Below are positions 2,106 through 55,626 of a DNA stretch of 64,000 nucleotides, one piece after another (position 1 is the first letter of the stretch; each line of letters begins with the position of its first letter). The notes below the pieces were generated by a model that searched no databases, had not been told where the DNA came from, and was given only the letters and a program-made list of their open reading frames with translations. Made by a program: the position numbers and the translations under genes. This stretch comes from Bacteroidales bacterium (GTDB taxonomy: Bacteria; Bacteroidota; Bacteroidia; Bacteroidales; UBA10428). Location of the stretch: assembly GCA_041737295.1 (NCBI GenBank), contig JBGSSA010000141.1, forward strand, positions 397 through 64,396. Direction: 5' to 3'.

Positions 2106-2951
2106 TTACAAAGAAAAATTGACATTGTCTATCAGCCTTACCTTGCCAACCTTAACTGCCACACAGCCAATCTTGCTCCCTGGTTCCTCCCACGATTTCA
2201 CGGGCTGAAGAGTTGTATCATCGGCAATCTCGAAATATTCAGTCTGTAAAAACAGATCTTCATCGATGCGGTCACGCACATATTTTCTGATTTCATCGGG
2301 AGTATGGGACCGTGCTAAATCCCTGGCCCGGAACAGTGTTTCGGAAATACGTGCGGCATGCTTACGCTCATCCGTTGTCAGGAGAGCATTTCTTGAACTC
2401 ATCGCCAACCCGTCATGTTCACGGATGATCGGACAGGATATTATTTCAACCGGAAGATTATAATCGCTGGTTACCTTTTTCAAAATGGCAAGCTGCTGAA
2501 AATCTTTGAGTCCAAAATAAGCCCGCCTGGGCTGCACAATCTCGAACAACCGTGTAACAACCTGGGCTACCCCATTAAAATGGCCCGGACGGTGCTTCCC
2601 TTCCATTACGGTACCAAGGCTGCCAAAATCGAAAACCCGGGTATCGGGTTCAGGGTAAACCTCGTTTACATCCGGCATAAAAACAACATCGCAACCGGCT
2701 TCCTCCAGTAACCGGATGTCCCTTTCCGGCATGCAGGGATAATTTTCCAGGTCCTTCTTGTCGTTAAACTGGTTGGGATTAACGAATATGCTGACAATGG
2801 TTACCTGATTTTCCCTTTTGCAGATATTTACAAGTGAAATATGGCCTTCATGCAATGCTCCCATGGTGGGTACAAATCCGGTTTCATATCCGGGTTCTTT
2901 TATGGAAGCGATGAATTGCCTGAGCTGTAATACGGATTGTGCAACTTTCAT
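2106..2951 (-). CDS. panC: Pantoate-beta-alanine ligase
   Basis: [10 protein letters not shown] motif. I place the start at internal ATG 2951 ([10 protein letters not shown]...), because the 60 upstream codons of ORF 2106..3131 are read through tandem repeats. Confidence 0.9.
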
Positions 2952-2956
2952 GGTTG

Positions 2957-2964
2957 CAAATATA
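2957..2964 (-). promoter_or_regulatory. Candidate Bacteroidota -7 promoter box (TATATTTG) 5 nt upstream of the panC ATG
   Basis: Minus strand reads TATATTTGcaaccATG, a perfect TAnnTTTG match. Confidence 0.3.
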
Positions 2965-2970
2965 AAAATG

Positions 2971-2990
2971 ATTTGTTGATTTGTTGATTG
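2971..2990. repeat. 8-mer tandem repeat (ATTTGTTG) x2.5
   Basis: Direct reading: atttgttg atttgttg attg. Confidence 0.9.
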
Positions 2991-2993
2991 TTT

Positions 2994-3056
2994 AGGCTGA
3001 AGGTTGAAGGCTGAAGGCTGAAGGCTGTAGGATGAAGGCTGTAGGATGAAGGTTTT
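2994..3056. repeat. 7-mer tandem repeat (AGGCTGA and variants AGGTTGA/AGGCTGT/AGGATGA) x9
   Basis: Direct reading shows nine contiguous heptamers. Confidence 0.95.
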
Positions 3057-3084
3057 TAGGGAGTCTTCTCCAGAAGAGGAACTG

Positions 3085-3140
3085 ACTGCAAGACTGCAAA
3101 ACTGCATAACTGCAAAACTGCAAAACTGCAAAACTTTCTC
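3085..3140. repeat. 8-mer tandem repeat (ACTGCAAA) x6, ending in the junction unit ACTTTCTC
   Basis: Direct reading: actgcaag actgcaaa actgcata actgcaaa x3 actttctc. Confidence 0.95.
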
Positions 3141-3171
3141 ACTCGTCCCTCGTCACTCGTCCCTCGTCACT
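3141..3171. repeat. 14-mer (two alternating heptamers, ACTCGTC/CCTCGTC) x2.2; minus strand reads GTGACGA/GGGACGA
   Basis: Direct reading. The repeat overlaps the last 6 codons and the stop of the histidine kinase gene. Confidence 0.9.
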
Positions 3172-4934
3172 TCTTTCGACAGGGTAAACAGAAATTCCAG
3201 TCCGCCCCCAACCCGGTTCCTTACAGAAATCTCCCCCTTGTGAAACTGAACGGCATTTTTTACAATAGCAAGTCCGAGGCCGGTGCCTCCGCTTTTACGG
3301 TCACGTCCTTTATCTACCCTGTAGAACCGTTCAAACAGCCGGGGCAGGTCACTGGCAGGCACACCGATACCTGTATCGGAAAATGAAAAGTAATAAAATT
3401 CCTTATCCTCAAGGTATTGATCGACCCTGATCGTAAGGTCATTCCCTCCATGACGTATGGCATTATCAAAAAGATTCCTGAAAATGGAATACAACAATAC
3501 CGGATTCCCGTTGATGGGCAAAAATTCCGGAAGGGCAAGTTCAAGGGATATATTTTTCTCCTTAAGCTGCAATTCAAGCTCAACGGAAATATCGCGTATG
3601 AGCTCATTGATATCGGCCTTTTCAACCAGGTAAAGGGTTGAAGCCTCTTCTATTTTTGTAAGCAGTGAGATATCATTGATAAGGTCCGCCAACCGGCTCG
3701 ACTGCAAATAGGCGCGTTGAAGGAAATCTGCTGTCTTTGCCTTATCGATATTGCCCTGCAGAATGGTTTCAAGAAATCCTTTTATCGAACTGACCGGGGT
3801 CTTAAGTTCATGGGCAATGTTTTCCGTGAGCTGTTGTTTCAGTATTTTGCGCTTTGCCGGTTTGGTAATATCGTTGATTGAAATTTCAAATGTCCGGTCA
3901 AGAAAAACTACGCTTTTCACCGAGAAAAACTTACCATTCCGGCTAATCACAATTTCATATGTAGGCAATGAACCAGCCTGGTTTGCCGGGTCAAACTTCA
4001 GATTTTTATCTACAAAATTTACGAGGGAAGCAAAATCTTCGATCCTGAAAAATTCTTCCCCGGAGATAACCCGTTTATCGCTGATCTGGTTAAGAAAACC
4101 GATAAAGTGGGCATTGCTTGTAATGATAAGTTTATCGGGTGAGAAAATGGCAATCCCTTCGTCAAGCAAATTCAGATGCCGGATCAGTTTGGCCTTTTCA
4201 GCAAGTAGTTCTTCCGTGGTTTTGTTTAACCGCTTATAAATATCGATTATGTCCTGCCCGATAACCCCAAGCTCATTACCCGGAAAATTCATTTCCTTGT
4301 CAATAGGCTCATTGGCCAATGCCTTCTTCGTGAATTGCCGCAAGGTCCGGATTGATTTGCCGAATTTATCGTTGATAAGGATGATTGAAAACGAAGTAAT
4401 GAAGAAGATCAACAGGATAAACAGGATAAAAACCCGGTCGGGCTGAATAAATTTTCTAACAGTGAAATCATAGACTTCCGAAACCCTGATGAATACATTG
4501 CTGAATTTACGTGCATAATAATAATACTCAACCTTCGTCGTATTCGATCTCCGGATATCGGTTCCGTAAATGCCGCCAATTGCCTGCTGCACCTCCGGCC
4601 TTTGGAAGTGATTCTCAATGCCGGAGGGATCCTTTACCCATGAATCATACAGTACCTTCCCGTCCCCGGCGATGAGGGTAATGCGCAGCGACTTTTTTGA
4701 AATGAGAGAATTCAGGGTATCCATCCGGGCAAAGTTCCCGGAAGCAATCATATTGTAGCGCCTGGTATAATTGTTTATGAGCACTGTATAGTTGTCGAGC
4801 TCCTTATTAAGTGCGTCAATACGGAATTTCTTCTCATGACGGAATTCCGAAACCAGCAATACTGTCGTGAAGAGCAATAAAAACGATACAATATAGAAAA
4901 GCCACTTCCTGCTGTAAGAGAATAATAAATTCAT
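3153..4934 (-). CDS. Sensor histidine kinase, PhoR-like by context
   Basis: H-box ENIAHELKTPVSSIKGF, and N/G boxes FRNLFDNAIRHG, DTGIGV, GGTGLGLAIV. N-terminal TM segments are present. ATG 4934 is preferred over TTG 4961. The gene is paired with an OmpR/PhoB-type regulator next to the pst operon. Confidence 0.8.
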   Translation of the reverse strand: MNLLFSYSRKWLFYIVSFLLLFTTVLLVSEFRHEKKFRIDALNKELDNYTVLINNYTRRYNMIASGNFARMDTLNSLISKKSLRITLIAGDGKVLYDSWVKDPSGIENHFQRPEVQQAIGGIYGTDIRRSNTTKVEYYYYARKFSNVFIRVSEVYDFTVRKFIQPDRVFILFILLIFFITSFSIILINDKFGKSIRTLRQFTKKALANEPIDKEMNFPGNELGVIGQDIIDIYKRLNKTTEELLAEKAKLIRHLNLLDEGIAIFSPDKLIITSNAHFIGFLNQISDKRVISGEEFFRIEDFASLVNFVDKNLKFDPANQAGSLPTYEIVISRNGKFFSVKSVVFLDRTFEISINDITKPAKRKILKQQLTENIAHELKTPVSSIKGFLETILQGNIDKAKTADFLQRAYLQSSRLADLINDISLLTKIEEASTLYLVEKADINELIRDISVELELQLKEKNISLELALPEFLPINGNPVLLYSIFRNLFDNAIRHGGNDLTIRVDQYLEDKEFYYFSFSDTGIGVPASDLPRLFERFYRVDKGRDRKSGGTGLGLAIVKNAVQFHKGEISVRNRVGGGLEFLFTLSKEVTRDE

Positions 4935-4942
4935 ATGTTCAG

Positions 4943-5638
4943 TTAATCCATTTCGAAGCAATATCCATATCCTTTGCGGGTAACCAGGAATTTCCCATAG
5001 TCTCCCAGCTTTTTCCGAAGACGGGTTACATGCACATCCACGGTCCTCTCTGTAACGGAAACATCCTTCCAGATAAAATCAAGGATCTGATCCCGGTCGA
5101 AAATTCTGCCCGGATTTTTGAGCAACATATATAGTAATTGAAATTCAATGGGGGTAAGGTCTTCCCGCTGACCGTCAATGGTGAGCCGTTTTTTTTCCAG
5201 GTCAAGCGATATGCCCTCAATCCGGATCGCATCCTCCGGATTCTCATGCTCTGATTTGCTTTCAGCCCTTCGGGCAACAGCTTTTACCCGGGCAATGATC
5301 TCCTTCACTGAAAAAGGCTTCGTGATAAAATCATCCGCCCCAAGAGAAAACCCTGTAAGCTTGTCATTTTCGGAGTTTTTAGCTGTGATGAAAATGATGG
5401 GGGTGGTGAGTTTTTTCCGTTTCCGGATCTCATCGGCCAGTTTGTATCCCGACATGCCTTTCATCATTACGTCAAGCAGGAAAAGCTGGTATCTTTCAAT
5501 TTTACGTGTCAGCGCCTCTTCCGCTGAATTTACCGTATCTGCAATAAATCCTTCCGACTCGAGATTGAATTTCAGGATCTCGCATATGTCCTCCTCATCA
5601 TCCACTATAAGAATACGGTACTTTTTGAGGTCTGTCAT
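4943..5638 (-). CDS. OmpR/PhoB-family response regulator, PhoB-like by context
   Basis: Receiver domain (ILIVDDEEDI, LFLLDVMM) plus a winged-helix domain (ERTVDVHVTRLRKKL). Divergent from the porin-pstSCAB-phoU block. Confidence 0.85.
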   Translation of the reverse strand: MTDLKKYRILIVDDEEDICEILKFNLESEGFIADTVNSAEEALTRKIERYQLFLLDVMMKGMSGYKLADEIRKRKKLTTPIIFITAKNSENDKLTGFSLGADDFITKPFSVKEIIARVKAVARRAESKSEHENPEDAIRIEGISLDLEKKRLTIDGQREDLTPIEFQLLYMLLKNPGRIFDRDQILDFIWKDVSVTERTVDVHVTRLRKKLGDYGKFLVTRKGYGYCFEMD

Positions 5639-29076: not shown

Positions 29077-29514
29077 GTGAAAAACATGCAGGATATACAG
29101 CAGGAGATAGTGGATGAATTCGAAGTATACGATGACTGGATGGATAAATACAATTACCTGATCGAATTGAGCCGTAACCTTCCATTGATCGATCCAAAAC
29201 TGAAGATCAATGAAAATATAATAAACGGCTGCCAGTCCAAAGTATGGCTAAGCGCCGAATACAAGGAAGGCCTGGTTTGGTTCAAAGCTGACAGCGATGC
29301 TATAATAACCAAGGGTATTATTGCCCTGCTTATCCGCGTATTATCCGGAAGGTCCCCTGAAGAACTCATGCAAAGCGAATTGTGGTTTATTGACAAAATC
29401 GGCCTTCGTCAGAATTTATCGCCTACGCGATCGAATGGCCTGCTGTCAATGGTAAAACAAATGAAATTATACGCGTTGGCGTACCACACGAAGAAAGTGA
29501 CGAGTGACGAGTGA
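29077..29514 (+). CDS. sufE: Cysteine desulfuration protein SufE
   Basis: GCQSKVWL active-site motif. The start is GTG 29077 or ATG 29086. The last 5 codons plus the stop lie in a GTGACGA repeat. Confidence 0.88.
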   Translation: MKNMQDIQQEIVDEFEVYDDWMDKYNYLIELSRNLPLIDPKLKINENIINGCQSKVWLSAEYKEGLVWFKADSDAIITKGIIALLIRVLSGRSPEELMQSELWFIDKIGLRQNLSPTRSNGLLSMVKQMKLYALAYHTKKVTSDE

Positions 29515-29531
29515 CAAGGAGGAAGTGACCT
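29497..29531. repeat. 7-mer tandem repeat (GTGACGA x2, GTGACAA, GGAGGAA, GTGACCT)
   Basis: Direct reading. It supplies the sufE stop codon (GTGACGAGTGA). Confidence 0.85.
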
Positions 29532-29545
29532 GTTTAAAAGATAAT

Positions 29546-29633
29546 AAATGTAGAGGCGACTCTCAGAGTCGCCTTAACCGTAACTAAATAAATGCAGAGA
29601 CGACTCTCAGAGTCGCCTCAACCGTATCTAAAT
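29546..29633. repeat. 44-bp tandem duplication x2, each carrying a hairpin (GGCGACTC-TCA-GAGTCGCC)
   Basis: Units at 29546..29589 and 29590..29633 differ at a few positions. Hairpins are at 29555..29573 and 29599..29617. Confidence 0.9.
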
Positions 29634-31115: not shown

Positions 31116-31199
31116 CTGGATGGGTATTAAAGTTTATACAAAGATACATCACTTGATATAAAATGATATTATCTTTGACGCACGTTCATTATTTTATTG

Positions 31200-31304
31200 C
31201 TTATCCAGAAAGGTGGAGGGTATGGCCCTGTGAAACCTTAGCAACCCTTTCAGATTTTGAAAGAAGGTGCTAACTCCTGCTCCGGCTTGCCGGGGATAGA
31301 TAAG
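31200..31304 (+). promoter_or_regulatory. SAM-I (S-box) riboswitch
   Basis: CUUAUCCAGAAAGGUGGAGGGUAUGGCCCUGUGAAACCUUAGCAACC...AAGGUGCUAACUCCUGC...GAUAAG. It matches the conserved S-box core and P1 (CUUAUC/GAUAAG), and lies upstream of hom. Confidence 0.9.
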
Positions 31305-31316
31305 TCGGACATCGTG

Positions 31317-44912: not shown

Positions 44913-45673
44913 TGATCACTGTGAATAACCTGCATAAATCCTTCAACGGCGTACCGGTTCTCAAGGGAATATCCGTCAGTTTCGAGAAGGGCAAAACCAA
45001 CCTTATCATCGGCCGGAGCGGATCGGGAAAAACCGTCCTCGTCAAATGCCTCGTCGGACTTCATGAGGTAGACCAGGGAACTATCTTTTATGACAAACGG
45101 AATTTTGTGGAAATGGACTTTGAATCCCGTAAAGAGATCCGCCGTGAAATCGGCATGCTTTTCCAGGGAGGCGCCCTCTTTGATTCACTGACGGTTGAAG
45201 AGAATGTGATGTTCCCACTCAATATGTTTACCGAAATGAGTTTGCGTGAAAAACTCGAACATACCAACTTATGCCTGAAACGGGTGGATCTTGTGAATGT
45301 GAACAAACTCTATCCCGGGGAATTAAGCGGGGGAATGAAGAAAAGGGTGGCCATTGCAAGGGCGATCGTGGAAAATCCCAAGTACCTCTTTTGTGATGAA
45401 CCCAACTCCGGCCTCGATCCTAAAACCGCACTCGTTATCGATGATCTTATCAGTGAAATTACCCATGAATATGACATCACCACCGTTATCAATACCCATG
45501 ATATGAACTCGGTGATGGAAATCGGTGAAAAAGTGATTTTCATTCATGATGGACATAAGTCGTGGGAGGGCACACGGGAGGAAATCCTCGACAGCGATGA
45601 TGAGAACCTCAACGACTTTGTTTTCGCATCCAATTTTGCTAAAAAAATCAAGTCCCTTACCGGTAACCAGTAG
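44912..45673 (+). CDS. mlaF: MlaF-family ABC transporter ATP-binding protein
   Basis: Walker A GRSGSGKT, signature LSGGMKKR, Walker B LFCDEP. The start ATG overlaps the mlaE stop (TGATG). The 89 upstream codons of ORF 44645 overlap mlaE and are rejected. Confidence 0.88.
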   Translation: MITVNNLHKSFNGVPVLKGISVSFEKGKTNLIIGRSGSGKTVLVKCLVGLHEVDQGTIFYDKRNFVEMDFESRKEIRREIGMLFQGGALFDSLTVEENVMFPLNMFTEMSLREKLEHTNLCLKRVDLVNVNKLYPGELSGGMKKRVAIARAIVENPKYLFCDEPNSGLDPKTALVIDDLISEITHEYDITTVINTHDMNSVMEIGEKVIFIHDGHKSWEGTREEILDSDDENLNDFVFASNFAKKIKSLTGNQ

Positions 45674-45687
45674 TCAGTAATCGGTAG

Positions 45688-45714
45688 TAGAGACAAGGCA
45701 ATGCCTTGTCTGTA
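45688..45714. terminator. Hairpin repeat of the TAGAG-stem-loop class after mlaF
   Basis: AGACAAGGC-AAT-GCCTTGTCT (9-bp perfect stem, 45691..45711) with partial extension. It has the same TAGAG 5' flank as the hairpins at 29551 and 29595. Confidence 0.55.
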
Positions 45715-45913: not shown

Positions 45914-45932
45914 TATATTTCCGGAATCAGAT

Positions 45933-46004
45933 CAACCAATCAACCAATCAACCAATCAACAAATCAACAAATCAACAGATCAACAAATCAACAAATCAAC
46001 AAAT
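45933..46004. repeat. 8-mer tandem repeat x9 (CAACCAAT x3, CAACAAAT x2, CAACAGAT, CAACAAAT x3)
   Basis: Direct reading. The last T is the first base of the complement of the DUF4834 stop codon. Confidence 0.95.
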
Positions 46005-46267
46005 TACTTCACCTCCTCATAATCCACATACACTCCGCTTCTGGGCTTATTTTTATTATTCTGCTGAGGTGAATAATCGATAGAAACTTCCCCTTCCTGC
46101 TTCTTTGCCTTTTGCGATTTCTGGTATTCCTTTTTATGCTGTTTGGCAAATTCCCTTGCTTTGTCATCCATAAAATTGAAAAACAACGCAGGCATAATGT
46201 ACCTCATAAATAACCGGATAATATAGGTTATTATTATTATGATCAGTATAGTCCTGAGTACCGCCAT
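46004..46267 (-). CDS. DUF4834-like small membrane protein
   Basis: N-terminal TM helix LRTILIIIIITYIIRLF, a K/Q-rich linker, and the C-terminal GEVSIDY...YVDYEEVK typical of this family. ATG 46267 is preferred over TTG 46288. Confidence 0.6.
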   Translation of the reverse strand: MAVLRTILIIIIITYIIRLFMRYIMPALFFNFMDDKAREFAKQHKKEYQKSQKAKKQEGEVSIDYSPQQNNKNKPRSGVYVDYEEVK

Positions 46268-46285
46268 ATCAATACTATTTTTGTA

Positions 46286-46293
46286 CAAAGATA
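46286..46293 (-). promoter_or_regulatory. Candidate -7 promoter box TATCTTTG for the DUF4834 gene
   Basis: Perfect TAnnTTTG match on the minus strand, 18 nt upstream of ATG 46267. Confidence 0.4.
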
Positions 46294-46302
46294 CTAATTT
46301 GT

Positions 46303-46337
46303 AGTTGAAAGTTGATGGTTGATGGTCGATAGTTTTA
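46303..46337. repeat. 7-mer tandem repeat (AGTTGAA, AGTTGAT, GGTTGAT, GGTCGAT, AGTTTTA)
   Basis: Direct reading. It is the complement of the TCAACNA family. Confidence 0.85.
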
Positions 46338-46351
46338 CACGGTAACGGACA

Positions 46352-46431
46352 GATTGCATGACTGCACGACTGCGCGACTGCCGAACTGCCGAACTGCTAA
46401 ACTGCTAAACTGCAAAACTGCAAAACTTTCT
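46352..46431. repeat. 8-mer tandem repeat x10 with stepwise unit drift, from GATTGCAT to AACTTTCT
   Basis: gattgcat gactgcac gactgcgc gactgccg aactgccg aactgcta x2 aactgcaa x2 aactttct. Confidence 0.95.
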
Positions 46432-46459
46432 TGTCCCTTGTCCCTTGTCCCTCGTCCCT
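46432..46459. repeat. 7-mer tandem repeat (TGTCCCT x3, CGTCCCT)
   Basis: Direct reading, followed by T8. The module order matches 3085..3171. Confidence 0.92.
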
Positions 46460-46508
46460 TTTTTTTACTACCTTTACGGGCGTTAAAAAATAAATCCCAA
46501 AAAAACAC

Positions 46509-48198: not shown

Positions 48199-51100
48199 TT
48201 GGTCGCAGCAAGGGAAAAACATATCATCTTACAGCCTTTATTAAAAATCCTTTTGCGCAGTGCCTTCGGTATGCTTATATCCGGGACTGTGATGCCCGTT
48301 TTCTCGCAGGGTATCCAATCACCGTCGGATACCACTAAACTGGCCTACCCGTTCCGTGACGATACGAATTTTCCGTTTTCAACATCCGGCGTTACCTCTC
48401 CCCTGTACCTGAATAATCCGTCCAATGTGGTACAAACCATTGTGTATGACCCGGTAACCAACCAGTATATTTTCTCTGAAAAAGTAGGCAGGCTCGACTA
48501 CAGGCCGCCTACATCCATGTCGCTTAAGGAATATCTTCAGTACGACCGCCAAACCTCAGTGCAGAACTACTGGCAGCAAAAATCAAGGGAAAATCTAGCC
48601 CCGTCAAAATCACCGCTCCTGGGCAATATTAAAATGGGCGATTCATTCGACAAGATCTTCGGAACGGATGCCATCAGCATTGTCCCCCAGGGATCAGCGG
48701 AATTGATATTCGGATATAATATGTCGCGCATTGACAATCCCGCCCTGTCTGAAAAAAACAGGAAAAACGGATCCTTCCTGTTCAAGGAAAAGATCCAGAT
48801 GAATGTGACCGGGAGCATAGGCGACAAAATGCAACTCGGGATTAATTACAACACGGAAGCATCCTTTGATTTTGAGAACAAAACCAAGCTGGAATATACA
48901 GGCAAGGAAGATGAAATTATTAAAAAAATAGAAGCCGGAAATGTGACTTTCTCACTTCCCGGTACCCTGATCACGGGCAGTCAGAGCTTATTTGGATTGA
49001 AAACCGACCTCCAGTTCGGAAAATTATTTGTGAGCTCTGTCGTCAGCCACCAGAGGGGCCAGTCACAGCAGATCGAAGTGAAAGGCGGCGCACAGGTGAG
49101 TAAATTTGAAGTGGATGCTGCCGATTATGATGCCAATAAGCATTTTTTTCTTTCCCATTTTTTCAGGAATAATTACAACTCCTGGCTGGAGTCCCTGCCT
49201 TATGTAAATTCAGGCGTCCGCATTCAGCAAATAGAGGTATGGATCACCAACAAATCGAGCAGTACTACCGATACCCGGAATATCCTGGCCCTGCAGGACC
49301 TCGGTGAAGGGTACGGACCCCAGGGGCAGCCGGATTTTGGCGGCCAGAAGGAGTTCATTGGTCCTGTCAGTACGTTTAACGCGGCAGCCGATAATAATAC
49401 AAACAAGCTGTATTCGAACATGGTGGAACAGTATGCCGGGATCCGGACGTTCAACCAGATTGCCGCGCTGCTTGCCCCCCTTGAATCATCCTATAATTTT
49501 TACGGCGGAAGGGATTTTGAAAAAATTGAAAACTCCCGTAAACTGAGCCAGACTGAATACTCCCTCAATGAGCAATTGGGTTATATCTCACTGAATTCTG
49601 CCCTGCGTGCGGATGAAGTCCTTGCAGTTGCCTATGTATATACATACCAGGGAAAGACCTACCGCGTGGGTGAATTGTCATCGGATGGTGTCAGCGCCCC
49701 GAAAACACTCGTAGTTAAACTGTTGAAAGGAACCAGCCTGACTCCGAAACTGAAAACCTGGGACCTGATGATGAAGAACGTTTATGCCATCGGCGCATAC
49801 CAGGTTTCAAACAGCGACTTCATTCTCGATGTCCTTTACCGGAAAGATGAAACCGGGGTACCTGTGAATTATATTTCCGAGCCCCTGGCTGACAGTGCTT
49901 TTAACCGTAAAATCCTGCTCAGGGTATTGAAAATGGACAACCTGGATTCAAGGAATGAACCGAATCCCGACGGACGGTTTGACTTTATTGACGGAACCAC
50001 CATCAATCCGCGCGACGGGAGGGTATTCTTCACCCAGGTTGAACCCTTCGGCAAAGACATGAAATATACAATAATGGGCGGAGATACGTCTGCAAGCAAT
50101 ACGGTACAGGAAAAAATTGCCCGGAAGTATATATTCGAAGAATTGTATGATTCTACCCAAACAAAGGCAAGGCAGATCTCTAAAAAGAACAAATTTTTCC
50201 TCGCCGGGGAATACGAGTCCTCCTCCAGTTCTGAAATCCAGCTGAATGCCATGAATGTGCCACAGGGATCCGTTAAGGTTTCTTCCGGGGGAATTGCCCT
50301 CGTGGAAGGGCAGGATTATACCGTGGATTATACGCTGGGAAGGGTAAAGATTTTGAACCAGGGCCTGATCGAATCGGGCGCCCCGCTTTCCGTTTCACTG
50401 GAAAACAATGCACTCTTCAACCTCCAGACAAAAACATTGCTTGGAACCCATATGGATTACAAATTCTCTGATAATTTCAATCTTGGAGGGACTGTAATGC
50501 ATCTGACGGAAAGACCCCTCACACAAAAAGTAAACGTGGGCGACGAACCCATATCAAATACGATCTGGGGATTGAATACAAGTTACCGTACCGATTCCAG
50601 GATGCTGACAAAATGGATTGATGCACTTCCCCTGATTGAAACCAAGGAAACTTCATCAATCTCGGTAGATGCGGAATTTGCACAGATGATACCGGGTCAG
50701 GCCAAAATCATCGGGGAAGGCGGGGTGGCTTACATTGATGACTTTGAAGGCACTGAAACTACAGTTGAACTGAAAACCATTCAATCCTGGTTTTTGTCGA
50801 GCACACCGCGCAAATTCCGCAATTCGGGACTCCTGAATAACCTTCAGTACGGCTATAACCGGTCCAAGCTGGCCTGGTATACGATCGATCCCCTTTTCAC
50901 CCGGAATGAATCCCGGACACCTAAAAACATTACCGAGGAGGAACAGAACGATCCTTATGTACGTGAGGTACTTGAAACGGAAATTTATAAAAACAGGGAA
51001 AGCGGTACCGGGTTTCAGAATACCCTGATGATCATGAACCTTGCCTACTTTCCCGAGGAAAGGGGCCCGTATAATTTTGATCCCTCACTGAGCGACGACT

Positions 51101-54100
51101 ATAAATTACCATTCCCCCGAACGAGATGGGGCGGCATTATGCGCGAAATTCAAACCAGTGATTTCGAAACCTCCAATATCGAATACATCGAATTCTGGCT
51201 TATGGATCCGTTTCTCAAGGATTCCCTTTCACAGGGCGGAGATTTGTTTTTCAACCTCGGTGAAATCTCGGAAGATGTGCTGAAGGATTCCCGTAAGTCA
51301 TTTGAAAACGGTCTTCCCACCTCGGATTCAATTGCCAGGATTGATACCAATTCAGTCTGGGGTCGTGTTCCCACCGCCCAGTCTATCGTAAACTCGTTTG
51401 ACTCGGATCCGAATAACAGGGAACTCCAGGATGTGGGAATGGACGGGATGAATGATGAACAGGAATTAGCCAAGTATGCATCCTATGTGAATCTGAAGAC
51501 TCCCGGTTCCCCTGCATGGTCAAGAATCAATGAAGATCCCTCAGCGGATAATTTCCTGTATTTCCTGGCACCGGAATATAACGATACGGCCGGCGTAATT
51601 ACACGGTATAAGGATTATAATAATACACAGGGCAATTCCCCAACCACCGAACAAAGCGGGGGCGATTTCGCCGCTTCCACCACACTTCCGAACACCGAGG
51701 ATATTAACAGGGACAATACACTGAATGAGACCGATGCCTATTACGAGTACCATGTTCCACTGAGTCCCGATGAACTGAACACGGATAATAGCTATATAAC
51801 CGATATCGTAGACGGCAAAGTAAATCCTGAAACCAACCTGCCGGTAAAGTGGTACCAGTTCCGTATCCCGATCGATGACTATGCAGGTAAATATGGAAAT
51901 ATCGAAGATTTCAAATCCATCCGCTTCATGCGAATGTACCTCACCAATTTTGAGAAGCCGGTTATCCTCCGGTTTGCCGAATTGCACCTGGTTCGCTCGG
52001 AATGGCGGAAATATGACAATACGCTCGCTTCAGGAAGTCCATCCGTCACCGACCAGTATGACAAGGGGGGATTCGAGATCAGCTCCGTGAATATCGAGGA
52101 AAACGCCCTTAAAACGCCTGTAAATTATATCCTGCCCCCCGGCATTGACCGCGTTGTTGACCCAAGTCAGCCCCAGGTGGCACAGCTGAATGAACAATCC
52201 ATCGTTTTTAAGGTGCATGACCTGGCTGACGGAGATGCACGGGCCGCTTACAAGACGCTGGGAATGGACCTGCGCCAGTACAAAAAGCTCAAAATGTTCG
52301 TTCATGCCGAACAACCGGTCGGACAGGTGCTGAATGATTATGAAATAACCGCCTTTATTCGCCTGGGTGCAGACCAAACCGACAACTATTATGAATATGA
52401 GGTTCCCCTGGCCCTAACTCCCGCGGGACAATACGGCGATGGTCAGCGATCCGTTGTATGGCCTGATGAGAATGCTATCGAAGTCATCCTTGACGAACTT
52501 GTGGACCTTAAAGTGGAGCGTGATGATGCCATCGACGGGCAGCCCGATCTGTATGATATTACTAAGATCTATAAAAAAAGGGTGGGCAAGAATCTCATCA
52601 AAATCAAGGGGACTCCGAATCTGAGTAACGTCAGGAATGTTGTGGTCGGGGTGCGGAATGCCGGTGACCTGGATAATGAATATCAAAACGACGGTCTCCC
52701 TAAATCAGCGGAAATATGGTTCAATGAATTGCGGCTCACTGATTTCAACAATAAGGGAGGATGGGCAGCCAACGCCAGGACGCAGCTAAGACTCGCCGAC
52801 CTCGGCATATTGTCCGTGGCCGGAAGCACTTCTAAACCCGGATTCGGAAGCATTGAACAAAAAGTAAATGCCAGGAATAAGGAAGAGACTAACCAGATTG
52901 ATGTTTCCACTAACCTCGAACTCGGAAAACTGCTGCCCGAAAAGGCAAAGGTGTCCGTGCCCTTGTATGTGGCTGTGTCGAAGACTACAGTTACCCCTGA
53001 ATATTCCCCCGCTGAACCCGACAGGCTGATGAAGGATGTGCTCGACCAGACTGCCACATCCTCGGAACGTAAGGCAGCCAAGGAGCTTTCTCAGGATGTT
53101 ATTAAAAGGAACAGCGTCAATTTCACCAATGTAAGGGTGAACAAGGACCTGGAGAAATTCAAAATAATCTCTCCCTCTAACTTCTCCATCACGGCCGGGT
53201 ATAGCGAAACCCAGGCGCATAGTTACGAAGTGGAACGAAACAATTCGATAAAATACGGCCTGTCACTGAACTATATATACAATACCCGTACGAAAAGCAT
53301 TACTCCCTTCAGAAAGTCAAAGGGATTGAAATCACCCTACCTGAGATTCATCAAGGATTTCAATTTTTCACCCCTGCCAAGCCGGCTGTCATTCCAGACT
53401 GCCTTTGACCGGTTTTACAATGAAATGAAATTAAGGAATGTATATGCGGATCGGGATGTACTTATCGACTCGACAGTCAGCAAGGACTTTTTGTGGAACA
53501 GGCGGTACGAGCTCAACTGGGACCTGACAAAGTCACTTAAATTCGACCTGTCGGTCAACAACCACGCACGGATTGACGAAGCCGCCGGCGCTTATGACCT
53601 GTTCAGGCAGGGCAATAAAAGCGAGTGGTCGAAATCCGTTTGGCAAAGTATCAAAAAAGGCGGCCGGCCGGTGAATTATAACCATAGTCTGAATGCAACC
53701 TATAATGTTCCGCTGAACAAATTCCCGATATTAAGCTGGACTTCCTTATCACTCCGCTACAATTCAACCTATGATTGGAGTGAAGGCCCGATATTTGAAG
53801 GTTCACGCACCCTGGGAAATTCAATTGCCAATTCCAACACGATGCAGGCCAGCACTACATTTAACCTGGCCGGACTTTATAACAAGACAAAATACCTGAA
53901 AGCGCTGGAATCAAAATATTCAGGGACCCAGAAGAGCAAGACCGAAAAGAAAATGAAAACGATAACTTTTACAAAGGAAAACGTTTTTCTTCGGCCTAAT
54001 ACGCCCCGGAACATTTCACATAAACTCAAAACCCAGGAATTAATTGTAAAAGTAACGGATGAAAGCGGGGCTGAAATTCCCGCCAAAGTGCAAATACTGG

Positions 54101-55626
54101 ACGACAACAGGATCAGCCTCACCGCAGATACGAATTATACAGGATTGCTGGTCGTTATAGAAGGCCAGGTGGTAAAGGCAAGTCCCCTGCTCTTTATCGG
54201 TGAGAATTCAATCCGTTTTCTGACGGGACTGAAAAATATTTCGGTTACCTATTCCCTTACAGGGGGAACCAAACTGGGTGGTTTTATGGCCACCCCGAAT
54301 ATTATCGGATTCAATACAGGAGACCAGTATAACGGGGCACCCGGACTTCCTTTCCTGTTGGGCTTACAGGATGACAAATTTGACAGGTATGCGGCAGACC
54401 AGGGATGGCTAACCACCAACCAGGCATTTAATGACCCGTATACAATGTCAAGAACCGAAAACTTCAATGTTAAAGGAACTTTTGAACCGTTCAAGGGATT
54501 CCGTATTGAAATATCCGGATTGCGTACCTATACCGATTTCCGGAGCGAGTATTACCATTACAGCGATACGACGGCCAACAACAACGGGTTTTCATTCGGT
54601 AACCAGACTGTCAACGGCGGATATTCAATATCCATTATCAGCATTGGTACCGGTTTTGAGAAACTGAAAAGCAGCAATGGTTTCAACTCGGTGTATTTTG
54701 AACGGTTTAAAACCTACCGTCAGATCATCTCCCACCGGCTCTATAACGACAGGCTAAATTCAAACGCGTCCAATTACCAGGGTTCCATACAACAAACTAT
54801 TGAACCGGGATATACCGACGGGTATGGATCCACATCGCCCGATGTAATCATACCTGCATTCCTGGCAGCCTATACGAACAAAGATCCGATGGCGGTAACA
54901 CTTGAAACATTTCCGGGTTTCAAAAATATAATGCCTAACTGGAGACTAACCTTTGATGGCCTGAGCAAACTCGATTTCGTAAAACGGTATATCAAAACCA
55001 TTGTTATTAACCATTCCTATAAATCCACCTATAACATCAATTCGTTCTCGACGAACTTATTGTATGAAGAAGATCCCATGGACGGATTTGGCTATGTAAG
55101 GGATTTTCAGGATAATTTCGTTCCGGAATTGCAGCTCAATACAGTTTCTATCAGGGAAGACATGAATCCGTTATTTGGTATTGACGCAACCTGGGTGAAT
55201 AGCCTGCTTACCCGTCTGGAATTCCGCAAATCACGGATCCTTGCCCTGAGCCTGGCCAATAACCAGCTCACGGAAAGCCGCAATGATGAAATGATCATCG
55301 GTGCAGGATATCGGTTTAAGGAGGTGCCCCTTAAAATCGGGCAAAAAGCTTATGAAAGCGATCTCAATCTGAAATTCGACCTGTCTGTGAGGGACAATAA
55401 AACCATCATCAGGTATCTTGCCCAGACTGAAGCAGATGAGGTGGACCAGATAACATCCGGGGACAGGATCTTTAAAATCCTGTTTACAGCAGATTACCTG
55501 CTTTCACCCCGATTCAACCTGCAATTCTTTTTCGACCGCACCCTTAACAAACCCCATACTTCCAGATCGTTCCTCAGGGTGGATACAAACATAGGCTTCA
55601 GCCTTCGTTTCACGCTTTCGCAATAA
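48199..55626 (+). CDS. sprA: T9SS outer-membrane translocon SprA (Sov)
   Basis: 2475-aa ORF in the conserved ruvA-sprA-gcvH neighbourhood. Huge beta-barrel-type sequence ending in a C-terminal aromatic-rich strand. The start is uncertain (TTG 48199 or ATG 48271). Confidence 0.9.
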   Translation: MVAAREKHIILQPLLKILLRSAFGMLISGTVMPVFSQGIQSPSDTTKLAYPFRDDTNFPFSTSGVTSPLYLNNPSNVVQTIVYDPVTNQYIFSEKVGRLDYRPPTSMSLKEYLQYDRQTSVQNYWQQKSRENLAPSKSPLLGNIKMGDSFDKIFGTDAISIVPQGSAELIFGYNMSRIDNPALSEKNRKNGSFLFKEKIQMNVTGSIGDKMQLGINYNTEASFDFENKTKLEYTGKEDEIIKKIEAGNVTFSLPGTLITGSQSLFGLKTDLQFGKLFVSSVVSHQRGQSQQIEVKGGAQVSKFEVDAADYDANKHFFLSHFFRNNYNSWLESLPYVNSGVRIQQIEVWITNKSSSTTDTRNILALQDLGEGYGPQGQPDFGGQKEFIGPVSTFNAAADNNTNKLYSNMVEQYAGIRTFNQIAALLAPLESSYNFYGGRDFEKIENSRKLSQTEYSLNEQLGYISLNSALRADEVLAVAYVYTYQGKTYRVGELSSDGVSAPKTLVVKLLKGTSLTPKLKTWDLMMKNVYAIGAYQVSNSDFILDVLYRKDETGVPVNYISEPLADSAFNRKILLRVLKMDNLDSRNEPNPDGRFDFIDGTTINPRDGRVFFTQVEPFGKDMKYTIMGGDTSASNTVQEKIARKYIFEELYDSTQTKARQISKKNKFFLAGEYESSSSSEIQLNAMNVPQGSVKVSSGGIALVEGQDYTVDYTLGRVKILNQGLIESGAPLSVSLENNALFNLQTKTLLGTHMDYKFSDNFNLGGTVMHLTERPLTQKVNVGDEPISNTIWGLNTSYRTDSRMLTKWIDALPLIETKETSSISVDAEFAQMIPGQAKIIGEGGVAYIDDFEGTETTVELKTIQSWFLSSTPRKFRNSGLLNNLQYGYNRSKLAWYTIDPLFTRNESRTPKNITEEEQNDPYVREVLETEIYKNRESGTGFQNTLMIMNLAYFPEERGPYNFDPSLSDDYKLPFPRTRWGGIMREIQTSDFETSNIEYIEFWLMDPFLKDSLSQGGDLFFNLGEISEDVLKDSRKSFENGLPTSDSIARIDTNSVWGRVPTAQSIVNSFDSDPNNRELQDVGMDGMNDEQELAKYASYVNLKTPGSPAWSRINEDPSADNFLYFLAPEYNDTAGVITRYKDYNNTQGNSPTTEQSGGDFAASTTLPNTEDINRDNTLNETDAYYEYHVPLSPDELNTDNSYITDIVDGKVNPETNLPVKWYQFRIPIDDYAGKYGNIEDFKSIRFMRMYLTNFEKPVILRFAELHLVRSEWRKYDNTLASGSPSVTDQYDKGGFEISSVNIEENALKTPVNYILPPGIDRVVDPSQPQVAQLNEQSIVFKVHDLADGDARAAYKTLGMDLRQYKKLKMFVHAEQPVGQVLNDYEITAFIRLGADQTDNYYEYEVPLALTPAGQYGDGQRSVVWPDENAIEVILDELVDLKVERDDAIDGQPDLYDITKIYKKRVGKNLIKIKGTPNLSNVRNVVVGVRNAGDLDNEYQNDGLPKSAEIWFNELRLTDFNNKGGWAANARTQLRLADLGILSVAGSTSKPGFGSIEQKVNARNKEETNQIDVSTNLELGKLLPEKAKVSVPLYVAVSKTTVTPEYSPAEPDRLMKDVLDQTATSSERKAAKELSQDVIKRNSVNFTNVRVNKDLEKFKIISPSNFSITAGYSETQAHSYEVERNNSIKYGLSLNYIYNTRTKSITPFRKSKGLKSPYLRFIKDFNFSPLPSRLSFQTAFDRFYNEMKLRNVYADRDVLIDSTVSKDFLWNRRYELNWDLTKSLKFDLSVNNHARIDEAAGAYDLFRQGNKSEWSKSVWQSIKKGGRPVNYNHSLNATYNVPLNKFPILSWTSLSLRYNSTYDWSEGPIFEGSRTLGNSIANSNTMQASTTFNLAGLYNKTKYLKALESKYSGTQKSKTEKKMKTITFTKENVFLRPNTPRNISHKLKTQELIVKVTDESGAEIPAKVQILDDNRISLTADTNYTGLLVVIEGQVVKASPLLFIGENSIRFLTGLKNISVTYSLTGGTKLGGFMATPNIIGFNTGDQYNGAPGLPFLLGLQDDKFDRYAADQGWLTTNQAFNDPYTMSRTENFNVKGTFEPFKGFRIEISGLRTYTDFRSEYYHYSDTTANNNGFSFGNQTVNGGYSISIISIGTGFEKLKSSNGFNSVYFERFKTYRQIISHRLYNDRLNSNASNYQGSIQQTIEPGYTDGYGSTSPDVIIPAFLAAYTNKDPMAVTLETFPGFKNIMPNWRLTFDGLSKLDFVKRYIKTIVINHSYKSTYNINSFSTNLLYEEDPMDGFGYVRDFQDNFVPELQLNTVSIREDMNPLFGIDATWVNSLLTRLEFRKSRILALSLANNQLTESRNDEMIIGAGYRFKEVPLKIGQKAYESDLNLKFDLSVRDNKTIIRYLAQTEADEVDQITSGDRIFKILFTADYLLSPRFNLQFFFDRTLNKPHTSRSFLRVDTNIGFSLRFTLSQ

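What the first reader, a model, noticed from the sequence alone, without database searches (positions are those of the whole stretch)
2971..3171. A 200-bp same-strand gap built almost entirely from four repeat modules
The gap between the kinase stop and the panC start contains four arrays in series. They are (ATTTGTTG)x2.5, (AGGCTGA-type)x9, (ACTGCAAA)x6 ending in the junction unit ACTTTCT, and (CGTCCCT/CGTCACT)x4. Only about 45 nt of the gap is non-repetitive. The sub-order (ACTGCAAA)n-ACTTTCT-(NGTCCCT)n recurs exactly at 46352..46459. The modules therefore travel together, or are generated together, rather than arising by independent slippage. The AGGCTGA family appears only here in this window.
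Basis: seen in the sequence. Interest (0 to 1): 0.6.

Follow-up and report, generated by a model that had tools for sequence, protein, structure and literature searches.

The report
Mosaic polar repeat arrays between genes
The 200-base gap between a sensor-kinase gene and panC in an uncultured Bacteroidales bacterium is one copy of a modular, recently spread family of 7-8-base tandem repeats that sit against gene ends in a fixed orientation; this kind of bacterial DNA is known but unexplained, and here it follows an unusually clear order of modules.

Summary
Tandem arrays cover 164 of 221 nt, against a mean of 1 nt in shuffles. The genes lie on the minus strand, and the kinase's TGA stop and last five codons lie inside the CGTCCCT/CGTCACT array.

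The four arrays are not one series. They form two opposed stacks that point inward from the flanking genes:
- panC side: A (TGATTTGT) then B (AGGCTGA).
- Kinase side: D (NAGKGAC) then C (TTTGCAGT).

B-linker-C recurs at 13-16 intergenic loci in this genome. The linker was not found in 30 other genomes of the genus, including the sister species, so this block was copied between loci recently.

Genome-wide, about 1,500 intergenic arrays obey one rule: one strand always reads away from the nearest gene. 169 of 175 multi-array regions comply. D arrays start on stop codons, peak at four units, and persist at orthologous gene ends across species.

The closest known cases are the polar heptamer repeats of Xanthomonas and Nostoc, and REP/BIME mosaics. 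A Y1 transposase gene elsewhere in the genome is bracketed by D units plus a REP-like hairpin. No function is shown. I classify this as a new variant of a known kind.

The parts
2106..2951 (-). panC (pantoate-beta-alanine ligase), the gene downstream of the gap
   Evidence: Translation. Pfam Pantoate_ligase, 1.9e-97.
2957..2964 (-). Candidate Bacteroidota-type -7 promoter box TATATTTG, ending 5 nt before the panC ATG. This leader is unique to this genome. G001, G024 and G045 share a different one (TATCTTTG..GGAGGTAAAC).
   Evidence: Read from sequence. The sigma-70 scan marks the same site, TATATT. Relatives. Uniqueness. The TAnnTTTG consensus is from my own knowledge and was not tested here.
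2969..2989 (+). Array A, TGATTTGT x2.6. Its polar (P) strand is the + strand, so it reads away from the panC 5' end.
   Evidence: TRF. Family polarity. Family present in 24 of 31 genomes of the genus.
2994..3056 (+). Array B, AGGCTGA x9. The last units are degenerate (AGGCTGT/AGGATGA/AGGTTTT). The P strand is the + strand.
   Evidence: TRF. 42 such arrays in the genome. 76 pattern hits here against 0 in the sister genome G001.
3060..3084 (.). Conserved linker GGAGTCTTCTCCAGAAGAGGAACTG, where the two stacks meet.
   Evidence: 13 loci at up to 7 substitutions, plus 3 more with indels. B-type arrays always lie on one side and C-type arrays on the other. No hit at up to 3 mismatches in 30 other genomes of the genus. 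No exact match to the pattern, with its two free positions, in metagenome contigs.
3085..3132 (-). Array C, ACTGCAAA x6 on the + strand, which is TTTGCAGT on its P strand (minus). It reads away from the kinase 3' end.
   Evidence: TRF. 114 arrays of this unit in the genome. Polarity.
3133..3139 (-). Junction ACTTTCT (AGAAAGT on the minus strand). This is the purine-rich cap that ends D elements and begins C arrays.
3140..3172 (-). Array D, read on the minus strand as AAGTGAC GAGGGAC GAGTGAC GAGGGAC GAGTG (unit NAGKGAC, about 4.6 units). It encodes the kinase's last five codons and its TGA stop (3155..3153).
   Evidence: The offset of -19 falls in one of the quantised classes. A D array sits at the same kinase end in G001.
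3153..4961 (-). Sensor histidine kinase (HisKA + HATPase_c). The catalytic domain ends at residue 596 of 602, so the array-encoded tail lies outside it.
46311..46466 (.). Second composite, in the divergent DUF4834/pdxA spacer: GTTGATG x3.4 (46311-46334), then ACTGCNNN x9 (46353-46424), ACTTTCT (46425-46431), YGTCCCT x4 (46432-46459) and a T run.
   Evidence: The same architecture occurs in G001, G024 and G045, which also keep a left-hand D x4 that G000 has lost.

Best explanation
The gap is one copy of a species-specific mosaic intergenic element. That element belongs to a genus-wide system of strand-polar 7-8-nt tandem arrays.

Anatomy (shown). Two stacks of arrays point inward from the two flanking genes and meet at a conserved linker.
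- Kinase stack: a D element (NAGKGAC x4.6) that overwrites the end of the kinase ORF and supplies its stop codon, then a purine cap, then C (TTTGCAGT x6).
- panC stack: A (TGATTTGT x2.6), starting 4 nt beyond a -7-type promoter box, then B (AGGCTGA x9).

Origin (inferred from distribution).
- B-linker-C is a young block that was copied between loci in this lineage. The route is either a non-autonomous mobile element or ectopic recombination guided by resident arrays. Here it probably joined a resident D-C set, because the sister species already has that set at this kinase stop.
- D and A are old boundary elements. They are length-quantised at about four units and persist at orthologous gene ends.

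Dynamics (shown as a pattern; cause inferred). Arrays have a sharp, homogeneous gene-proximal end and a decayed distal end. This fits local slippage or unit addition concentrated at the gene-facing end, limited by selection at the stop codon or the promoter.

Effects at this locus (inferred). The array sets the kinase C-terminus and stop. D and C make up the first part of the kinase 3' UTR. The composite has replaced the ancestral panC leader and promoter context. I see no evidence of a dedicated function here.
For: Arrays and strands.

Genome-wide census: about 2,660 arrays with periods 7 and 8 dominant. The top families are close to 100% intergenic, although only about 14% of the genome lies outside my ORF calls.

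Polarity:
- Every major family has one strand that reads away from the nearest gene end.
- Adjacent pairs by direction: +- 71, ++ 63, -- 60, -+ 2. 169 of 175 multi-array regions fit the inward pattern '>..><..<', against a mean of 97 and a maximum of 114 in 1,000 shuffles.
- Arrays are dense in convergent spacers and sparse in divergent ones.

Stop anchoring of D: 112 of 182 arrays start within -24..+10 of a same-strand ORF stop, at quantised offsets of -2, -5, -12 and -19. Stop usage at these genes is TAG 43%, TGA 42%, TAA 15%, against 21%, 27% and 52% genome-wide.

Module order.

Linker block: 13-16 loci in this genome, none in 30 genus relatives, no exact match in metagenome contigs.

Burst of B: 76 hits here against 0 in the sister genome.

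Orthologous loci:
- The kinase-panC gap differs in every species, but D stays at the kinase end.
- In the nadE/recQ spacer all four species keep D-type units at the recQ stop, and three of the four at the nadE stop (G001 has a different array there); the interiors are unrelated.
- The pdxA-upstream composite is conserved in four species.

Unit-divergence gradient: proximal half 0.39 mismatches per unit, distal half 0.70; 147 arrays against 55, p = 7e-11 (one search agrees).

Copy number: D peaks at 4 units (140 of 232) and A at 4-5, while B and C are broad.

Possible mobiliser: a Y1 (HUH) transposase gene is bracketed by inverted D-plus-hairpin units. The hairpin has 63 copies, with the same polarity and with arrays on its 5' side.
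Against: - No transposition hallmarks were found. There are no target-site duplications around D..D' pairs, and only 44 of 232 D elements are paired.
- The arrays in this gap carry no hairpin, and the RNA fold is no better than shuffles (z = 0.04). A REP/RAYT route is therefore not shown for A, B, C or the linker.
- The Y1 gene scores as IS200-type, and is below cut-off for the RAYT model.
Among genomes of 3.0-4.5 Mb it is only p = 0.05.
- Zero spacing to stop codons, the four-unit peak and the strict polarity could equally reflect a function.
- The gradient depends on method. One variant, whose register choice I judge flawed, did not show it.
- Gene calls are my own crude ORF calls.
- No read-level or RNA data could be obtained.
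Confidence: 0.6

Rival explanations
1. Functional gene-boundary punctuation. The arrays act in RNA or DNA at gene edges. After a stop codon, the G/T/A-rich sense strand gives stop codons in all three frames and an unstructured or protein-binding 3' UTR. Before a start codon, the A/C-rich sense strand gives an unstructured leader suited to Shine-Dalgarno-independent initiation in Bacteroidota. On this reading selection, not mutation, sets the polarity, the zero spacing and the roughly four-unit length.
For: - D starts on the stop codon in most cases.
- D and A show a sharp peak at about 4 units.
- D persists at orthologous gene ends while the interiors turn over.
- In G024, where D has shrunk to one unit, the kinase ORF runs on for 35 codons.
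- 5'-adjacent arrays often end 1-10 nt before the ATG.
- The same polarity, four-unit preference and transcription were reported for Xanthomonas and Nostoc repeats (PMC4692102). A translational role was proposed for TAACTGA repeats (PMC4679880).
Against: - More than 20 unrelated unit families coexist, and they burst and vanish between sister species.
- C units carry no stop codon on either strand (read from sequence).
- G-quadruplex selection is excluded: all-T elements (30) are as common as all-G elements (32).
- ORFs enter D in all three frames at similar rates: 14, 10 and 17. That looks like encroachment on the ORF rather than design.
- The gap RNA has no structure above shuffles, and no terminator was found.
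- No expression data are available.
Confidence: 0.2
2. A dedicated repeat-writing activity. An enzyme extends arrays directionally from a seed, by templated or cleavage-and-rejoin addition of 7-8-nt units. Candidates are the Y1/HUH transposase linked to the REP-like hairpin, or a reverse transcriptase or primase-type polymerase. The polarity and the homogeneous growing end would then be signatures of that enzyme.
For: - Intrinsic strand polarity, and sharp homogeneous proximal ends against decayed distal ends.
- The same consensus unit at more than 100 loci.
- Family bursts within one species.
- Arrays of any family sit on the 5' side of hairpin-1, in one orientation.
- The Y1 gene is bracketed by D-plus-hairpin units.
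- Genomes without a strong Y1 hit have few or no D arrays.
Against: - The homogeneous end is the end far from the hairpin, not next to it.
- Consensus AAA units in C arrays show no outer-side bias: 22 against 23.
- To my knowledge no known HUH enzyme adds tandem units.
Confidence: 0.12
3. Independent local slippage. Each array arose on the spot from a chance short duplication, and the shared units and order are coincidence or composition bias.
For: - Copy numbers of B and C vary widely.
- Units drift along arrays, for example at 46353-46424.
- Heptamers are the commonest long simple-sequence repeats in bacteria (Mrazek et al. 2007, as cited in PMC4679880).
Against: - A conserved non-array linker at 13-16 loci.
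- Identical units at dozens to more than 100 loci, with zero hits for the reversed control patterns.
- The strict order of modules and the inward rule.
Confidence: 0.03
4. Assembly artefact. The arrays are collapsed or expanded products of short-read metagenome assembly.
For: Many contigs of this 258-contig assembly end 130-150 nt from an array. The arrays do disturb the assembly, and copy numbers of the longest arrays could be wrong.
Against: - The arrays here are 21-63 nt, shorter than a read.
- The same families lie at orthologous positions in independent assemblies with far fewer contigs: G001 with 20 contigs and G045 with 4.
Confidence: 0.02

Closest known systems
G-rich heptamer repeats GGGAATC (Xanthomonas) and GGGGA(C/T)T (Nostoc PCC 7120), Rehm et al. 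2015, PMC4692102
   Same: - Dispersed intergenic tandem heptamers.
- On the sense strand within 50 nt of, or overlapping, the stop codon.
- On the antisense strand upstream of starts.
- Rare between divergent genes.
- A clear preference for four units.
- Function unknown.
   Different: - That work describes one unit family in the xanthomonads and one in Nostoc. Here more than 20 families are stacked in a fixed order and joined by conserved linkers.
- The units are not G-quadruplex formers as a class. AGTGAC elements are as common as AGGGAC elements.
- Different phylum.
REP / BIME / REPIN elements with RAYT (Y1) transposases (PMC3733652, PMC3116915)
   Same: - Extragenic, mostly after genes and between convergent or co-directional genes.
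- Mosaic combinations of oriented modules with specific linkers.
- Species-specific bursts.
- A Y1 transposase gene bracketed by inverted repeat units.
   Different: - The modules in this gap are tandem 7-8-mers, not palindromes, and the gap has no fold above shuffles.
- The Y1 gene scores as IS200-type, below the RAYT cut-off.
- No link between the Y1 gene and arrays A, B, C or the linker is shown.
TAACTGA direct repeats of marine Beggiatoaceae, some Cyanobacteria and Bacteroidetes (MacGregor 2015, PMC4679880)
   Same: - Intergenic heptamer arrays of 2-6 or more units.
- They abut start codons, sometimes overlap upstream stop codons, and give stops in all frames.
- Patchy phylogenetic distribution.
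   Different: - A single unit sequence, mostly oriented toward the downstream start.
- No stacking order or linker was described.
- The unit is absent from this gap.
Cyanobacterial STRR heptamers and 'long simple sequence repeats' (Mazel 1990 and Mrazek 2007, as cited in PMC4692102 and PMC4679880)
   Same: Families of tandem heptamers at about 100 copies per genome, intergenic and lineage-specific. Slippage was proposed as their origin.
   Different: As far as those citations go, polarity, stop-codon anchoring, module order and a dispersed linker block were not described. I did not read the original papers.

Membership tests
Polar intergenic heptamer/octamer repeats (Rehm 2015 type; LSSR) | Tandem units of 5-11 nt, dispersed at many intergenic loci | tested here: met
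   About 2,660 arrays, with periods 7 and 8 dominant. The top families are about 100% intergenic.
Polar intergenic heptamer/octamer repeats (Rehm 2015 type; LSSR) | Fixed strand relative to the neighbouring gene: sense strand after stops, antisense strand before starts | tested here: met
   In this gap D and C follow the kinase stop in sense, and A and B lie antisense upstream of panC.
Polar intergenic heptamer/octamer repeats (Rehm 2015 type; LSSR) | Preference for about four units | tested here: met
   D: 140 of 232 elements have exactly 4 units. A peaks at 4-5 units. B and C are broad.
Polar intergenic heptamer/octamer repeats (Rehm 2015 type; LSSR) | G-tracts able to form a G-quadruplex | tested here: not met
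   Of 140 four-unit D elements, only 32 have four GGG units and 30 have none. A, B and C have no G-tracts.
REP / BIME / REPIN | The unit is an imperfect palindrome (hairpin) | tested here: not met
   The gap RNA fold gives z = 0.04, and the arrays are direct repeats. Hairpin elements exist elsewhere in the genome but not in this gap.
REP / BIME / REPIN | Mosaic of oriented modules joined by conserved linkers, in extragenic positions | tested here: met
REP / BIME / REPIN | A cognate RAYT gene flanked by the repeats | tested here: inconclusive
   The Y1 gene at C118:18123-18590 is flanked by inverted D-plus-hairpin-1 units. It scores 65 bits on the IS200 model (cut-off 55) and 40 bits on the RAYT model (cut-off 80).
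MITE (cut-and-paste non-autonomous transposon) | Terminal inverted repeats plus target-site duplication | tested here: not met
   There are 22 D..D' inverted pairs, but they have no flanking direct repeats. The B-linker-C block has unlike arms.
Phase-variable contingency locus (SSR in a promoter or ORF) | Copy-number heterogeneity within a population that switches expression | not testable with these tools
No same-strain contigs were found.
Intrinsic terminator | G+C-rich stem-loop followed by a U tract on the transcribed strand | tested here: not met

The most novel reading that the evidence does not exclude
The arrays are the visible output of a directional repeat-writing and repeat-copying system that marks gene boundaries. 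A short core (here the roughly 50-nt AGGCT..linker..ACTGC block) lands in a spacer. Its two ends are then extended outward unit by unit until they meet the stop codon or the promoter. Old four-unit D and A elements act as fixed boundary markers. The Y1/HUH transposase that is bracketed by D-plus-hairpin units is part of the machinery. That would be a new class of genome-shaping activity in bacteria, and it could explain the unexplained polar heptamer repeats seen in several phyla.
Probability: 0.15. Interest if true: 0.85.

Novelty: new variant of a known kind. Interest (0 to 1): 0.5.

Why it matters
Polar heptamer and octamer arrays at gene ends have been noted in Xanthomonas, cyanobacteria and Beggiatoa without explanation. 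This genome adds three things:
- A strict, testable rule: all arrays point inward from the flanking genes, with D outermost and B facing C.
- A dated event: a linker-bearing block found at 13-16 loci in one species and not detected in its sister. This shows that whole composites are copied between loci.
- A candidate enzyme link: a Y1 transposase bracketed by the same units.

The arrays also rewrite gene ends. Here they supply the stop codon and last five codons of a sensor kinase, and they replace the leader of panC. They are therefore a source of fast change in 3' ends and promoters. They also cause assembly breaks in metagenome-assembled genomes.

Tried and rejected
- G-quadruplex selection for D: rejected. 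GGGG 32 and TTTT 30, against binomial expectations of 7 and 10. This is homogenisation within elements, not selection for G-tracts.
- Classical MITE: no target-site duplications around the 22 D..D' pairs.
- D..D' long hairpin as the general function: only 44 of 232 D elements are paired.
- Structured RNA or a known RNA family in the gap: fold z = 0.04; the only Rfam hit in the window is a SAM riboswitch elsewhere.
- Covariation in the linker: none seen by eye among the 13 copies.
- Concerted change toward ACTGCAAA at the outer ends of C arrays: 22 against 23, rejected.
- Import of the panC promoter together with the composite: the leader is unique in the genome.
- One variant of the gradient analysis gave no signal: 95 against 80. 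It used family-level consensus units, and its register choice favoured fewer units, so I regard it as flawed. Searches agree with each other.
- The exact panC protein is not on record elsewhere.
- Two metagenome scans for the spacer and linker found nothing.

Full report
**What is there.** The window is C101:397-64396 of a 5.42-Mb, 258-contig, 43% G+C assembly. Its panC is closest to that of uncultured Bacteroidales MAGs, and more distantly to Prolixibacteraceae and Draconibacterium. Both genes at the finding are on the minus strand:
- A two-component sensor kinase at 3153..4961 (HisKA + HATPase_c), preceded by its response regulator.
- panC at 2106..2951, followed by panD.

TRF confirms four arrays. 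Arrays cover 164 of 221 nt, against a mean of 1 nt and a maximum of 43 nt in 300 dinucleotide shuffles. The kinase TGA (3155..3153) lies in the third unit of the last array, so the protein's last five residues (VTRDE) and its stop are array-encoded. The Pfam domain ends at residue 596 of 602.

**Genome-wide picture.** TRF finds about 2,660 non-overlapping arrays, dominated by periods 7 (732) and 8 (660). The four unit families of the gap are all among the ten commonest:
- ACTGCAAA: 114 arrays.
- ATTTGTTG: 82 arrays.
- AGGCTGA: 44 arrays.
- The four GTCMCT variants: 171 arrays together.

With my own crude ORF calls (at least 100 aa, greedy choice, 86% coding), the top families are almost entirely intergenic. 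The GTCMCT ('D') families often straddle gene ends.

**Polarity and anchoring.** For every major family, one strand (here called P) reads 5'->3' away from the nearest gene end. This holds whether that end is a 3' end (the majority, at a median of 0-10 nt) or a 5' end.
- Adjacent arrays by direction: +- 71, ++ 63, -- 60, -+ only 2.
- 169 of 175 multi-array spacers fit the inward pattern '>..><..<', against a mean of 97 and a maximum of 114 in shuffles.
- Arrays are densest in convergent spacers and sparsest in divergent ones.

D arrays (NAGKGAC on P) start on the stop codon. Of 182 arrays, 112 begin within -24..+10 of a same-strand ORF stop. The offsets are quantised at -2 (the TAG of the first unit) and at -5, -12 and -19 (the TGA of unit 1, 2 or 3). 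TAG and TGA are strongly over-used as stops at these genes. The three frames are hit about equally (14, 10, 17). This looks like ORFs running into an array, not designed stops.

At 5' ends, many arrays stop 1-10 nt before the ATG or just beyond a -7-type box.

**Order of modules, and the linker.** At the class level:
- D is outermost: before C 33 to 8, before A 13 to 0, before the TAGGGAG class 10 to 1.
- A precedes B 11 to 6.
- B and C almost always face each other: 24 facing, 1 in the same direction.

The gap is therefore the canonical form A>B> <C<D. The stretch between B and C, which looked unique, is a conserved linker: GGAGTCTTCTCCNGAAGRGGAACTG. It is found at 13 loci, plus 3 with indels. 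B-type arrays always lie on one side and C-type arrays on the other. The block occurs in either orientation relative to the flanking genes.

At up to 3 mismatches the linker has 8 hits in this genome and none in 30 other genomes of the genus, including the sister G001, whose panC is 86% identical. Two exact-match metagenome scans found nothing.

**Distribution in the genus, and orthologous loci.**
- D x3 occurs in 21 of 25 genomes of the genus and essentially nowhere in 16 other families of the order.
- A x3 occurs in 24 of 31 genomes.
- C x3 occurs in 5 of 25.
- B x3 occurs in 5 of 31, with 76 hits here and 0 in G001.

The kinase-panC gap differs between species:
- G001: D x4 at the same kinase end, a decayed C, then an inverted C-ACTTTTTCT-D' x4 just before a conserved promoter.
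- G024: one D unit, a decayed hairpin and D' x2. The kinase ORF runs on for 35 codons.
- G045: one D unit and a clean hairpin.

In the convergent nadE/recQ spacer all four species keep D-type units at the recQ stop, and three of the four at the nadE stop (G001 has a different array there), while the interiors are unrelated. Only G000 has A-B-linker-C inside.

Upstream of pdxA, the composite D>A>..<C-cap-<D'-T run is conserved in G001, G024 and G045. G000 has lost the left D.

So D, and the C-cap-D pair, are old and positionally stable. B-linker-C is young and dispersed.

**Internal structure of arrays.**
- Using each array's own modal unit, the gene-proximal half is more uniform than the distal half: 0.39 against 0.70 mismatches per unit, in 147 arrays against 55, p = 7e-11. 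Excluding D the count is 130 against 44.
- One search agrees. A variant with a poorer register choice did not.
- D peaks sharply at 4 units (140 of 232) and ends in a degenerate cap, RAGGAAGAA.
- A peaks at 4-5 units. B and C are broad.
- Within four-unit D elements, all-G (32) and all-T (30) forms are both far above binomial expectation. This argues for homogenisation and against G-quadruplex selection.

**Link to hairpin repeats and a Y1 transposase.** After D, the commonest neighbours are C arrays (44), a REP-like 'hairpin-1' (31) and A arrays (22).
- Hairpin-1 (ATCCC-N-GGGAT..CGGTAGA) has 63 strict copies. It is preceded by P-oriented arrays of several families, and 37 of 44 copies point away from the nearest gene.
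- The 155-aa Y1/HUH transposase gene at C118:18123-18590 is the stronger of two Y1 matches in the genome. It is bracketed REPtron-style. Upstream lie D x4 and three hairpin-1 copies. Downstream lie two inverted copies of D units plus hairpin-1.
- The protein passes the IS200 model and fails the RAYT cut-off.
- Genomes of the genus with a strong Y1 hit have more D arrays (median 81 against 0.5, p = 0.002). Genome size confounds this.

**Comparison with the literature.**
- Rehm et al. 2015 (PMC4692102) describe the same polarity, stop overlap, four-unit preference and scarcity between divergent genes. Their repeats are GGGAATC in Xanthomonas and GGGGAYT in Nostoc.
- MacGregor 2015 (PMC4679880) describes TAACTGA arrays that abut start codons.
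- Di Nocera et al. 2013 (PMC3733652) and the REPIN papers describe extragenic mosaic palindromes tied to Y1 transposases.
- None of the papers I read describes the stacking order, or a dispersed linker block flanked by two different arrays.
- Earlier notes of this scan report similar polar arrays in several phyla. I reached the polarity rule before reading them, and I treat them as agreement only.

**Reading.**
- Most likely (0.6): the gap is a mosaic of selfish or near-neutral repeat modules. An old D-C set sits at the kinase stop. A young A-B-linker-C block was copied in, possibly by recombination through the resident C array. Local slippage then concentrated at the gene-facing ends, limited by selection. 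The effects on the kinase C-terminus and the panC leader are incidental.
- A functional 'punctuation' reading (0.2) and a dedicated repeat-writing activity (0.12) are not excluded.
- Independent slippage and assembly artefact are effectively excluded.

**Limits.**
- Gene calls are crude.
- P orientation was defined per family from the same data used in some of the tests.
- No reads, RNA data or conspecific genomes were available (closed; empty).

Noticed in passing
G000 contig C118:17900-19000 (outside the window): A 155-aa Y1/HUH transposase gene (IS200-type by NCBIfam) is bracketed by inverted copies of D units plus a REP-like hairpin (ATCCC..GGGAT..CGGTAGA). The upstream side has D x4 on a stop codon followed by three tandem hairpin units.
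   Followed up: partly
window 45688-45714: The hairpin TAGAGACAAGGCAATGCCTTGTCTGTA lies 15 nt after the stop at 45673. The same hairpin family sits in the kinase-panC gap of relatives G045 and G024, and at several other loci. Its 5' arm resembles 1.5 D units.
   Followed up: partly
window 29496-29633: A D array (AGTGACG x2.9) overlaps a gene's TGA stop. It is followed by a 44-nt hairpin-containing unit repeated 2.1 times.
   Followed up: no
L083 (G024) 1330-1465: In relative G024 the D array at the kinase end has shrunk to one unit. The kinase ORF then reads on for 35 codons, to a TAA immediately upstream of the panC ATG.
   Followed up: no
window 45931-46006: (ATCAACAA)x9 on the + strand is, on the minus strand, TAA-(TTTGTTGA)n starting exactly on the stop codon of the DUF4834 gene (46004-46288, minus).
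   Followed up: partly
genome-wide, e.g. C187:12466-12593: Arrays of TAAGGAG (a stop codon plus a Shine-Dalgarno-like AAGGAG) lie directly after stop codons in 9 of 12 cases. This is odd for a phylum that largely does without Shine-Dalgarno sites.
   Followed up: no
contig ends, e.g. C100, C144, C159, C232, C256, C101:135-265: Many contigs end 130-150 nt from an array or from a linker copy. The repeats appear to break the short-read assembly.
   Followed up: no
window 31198-31306: SAM riboswitch (RF00162, 89 bits) on the + strand.
   Followed up: no
window 48199-55626: A very long ORF (2,475 aa) on the + strand. Not examined.
   Followed up: no
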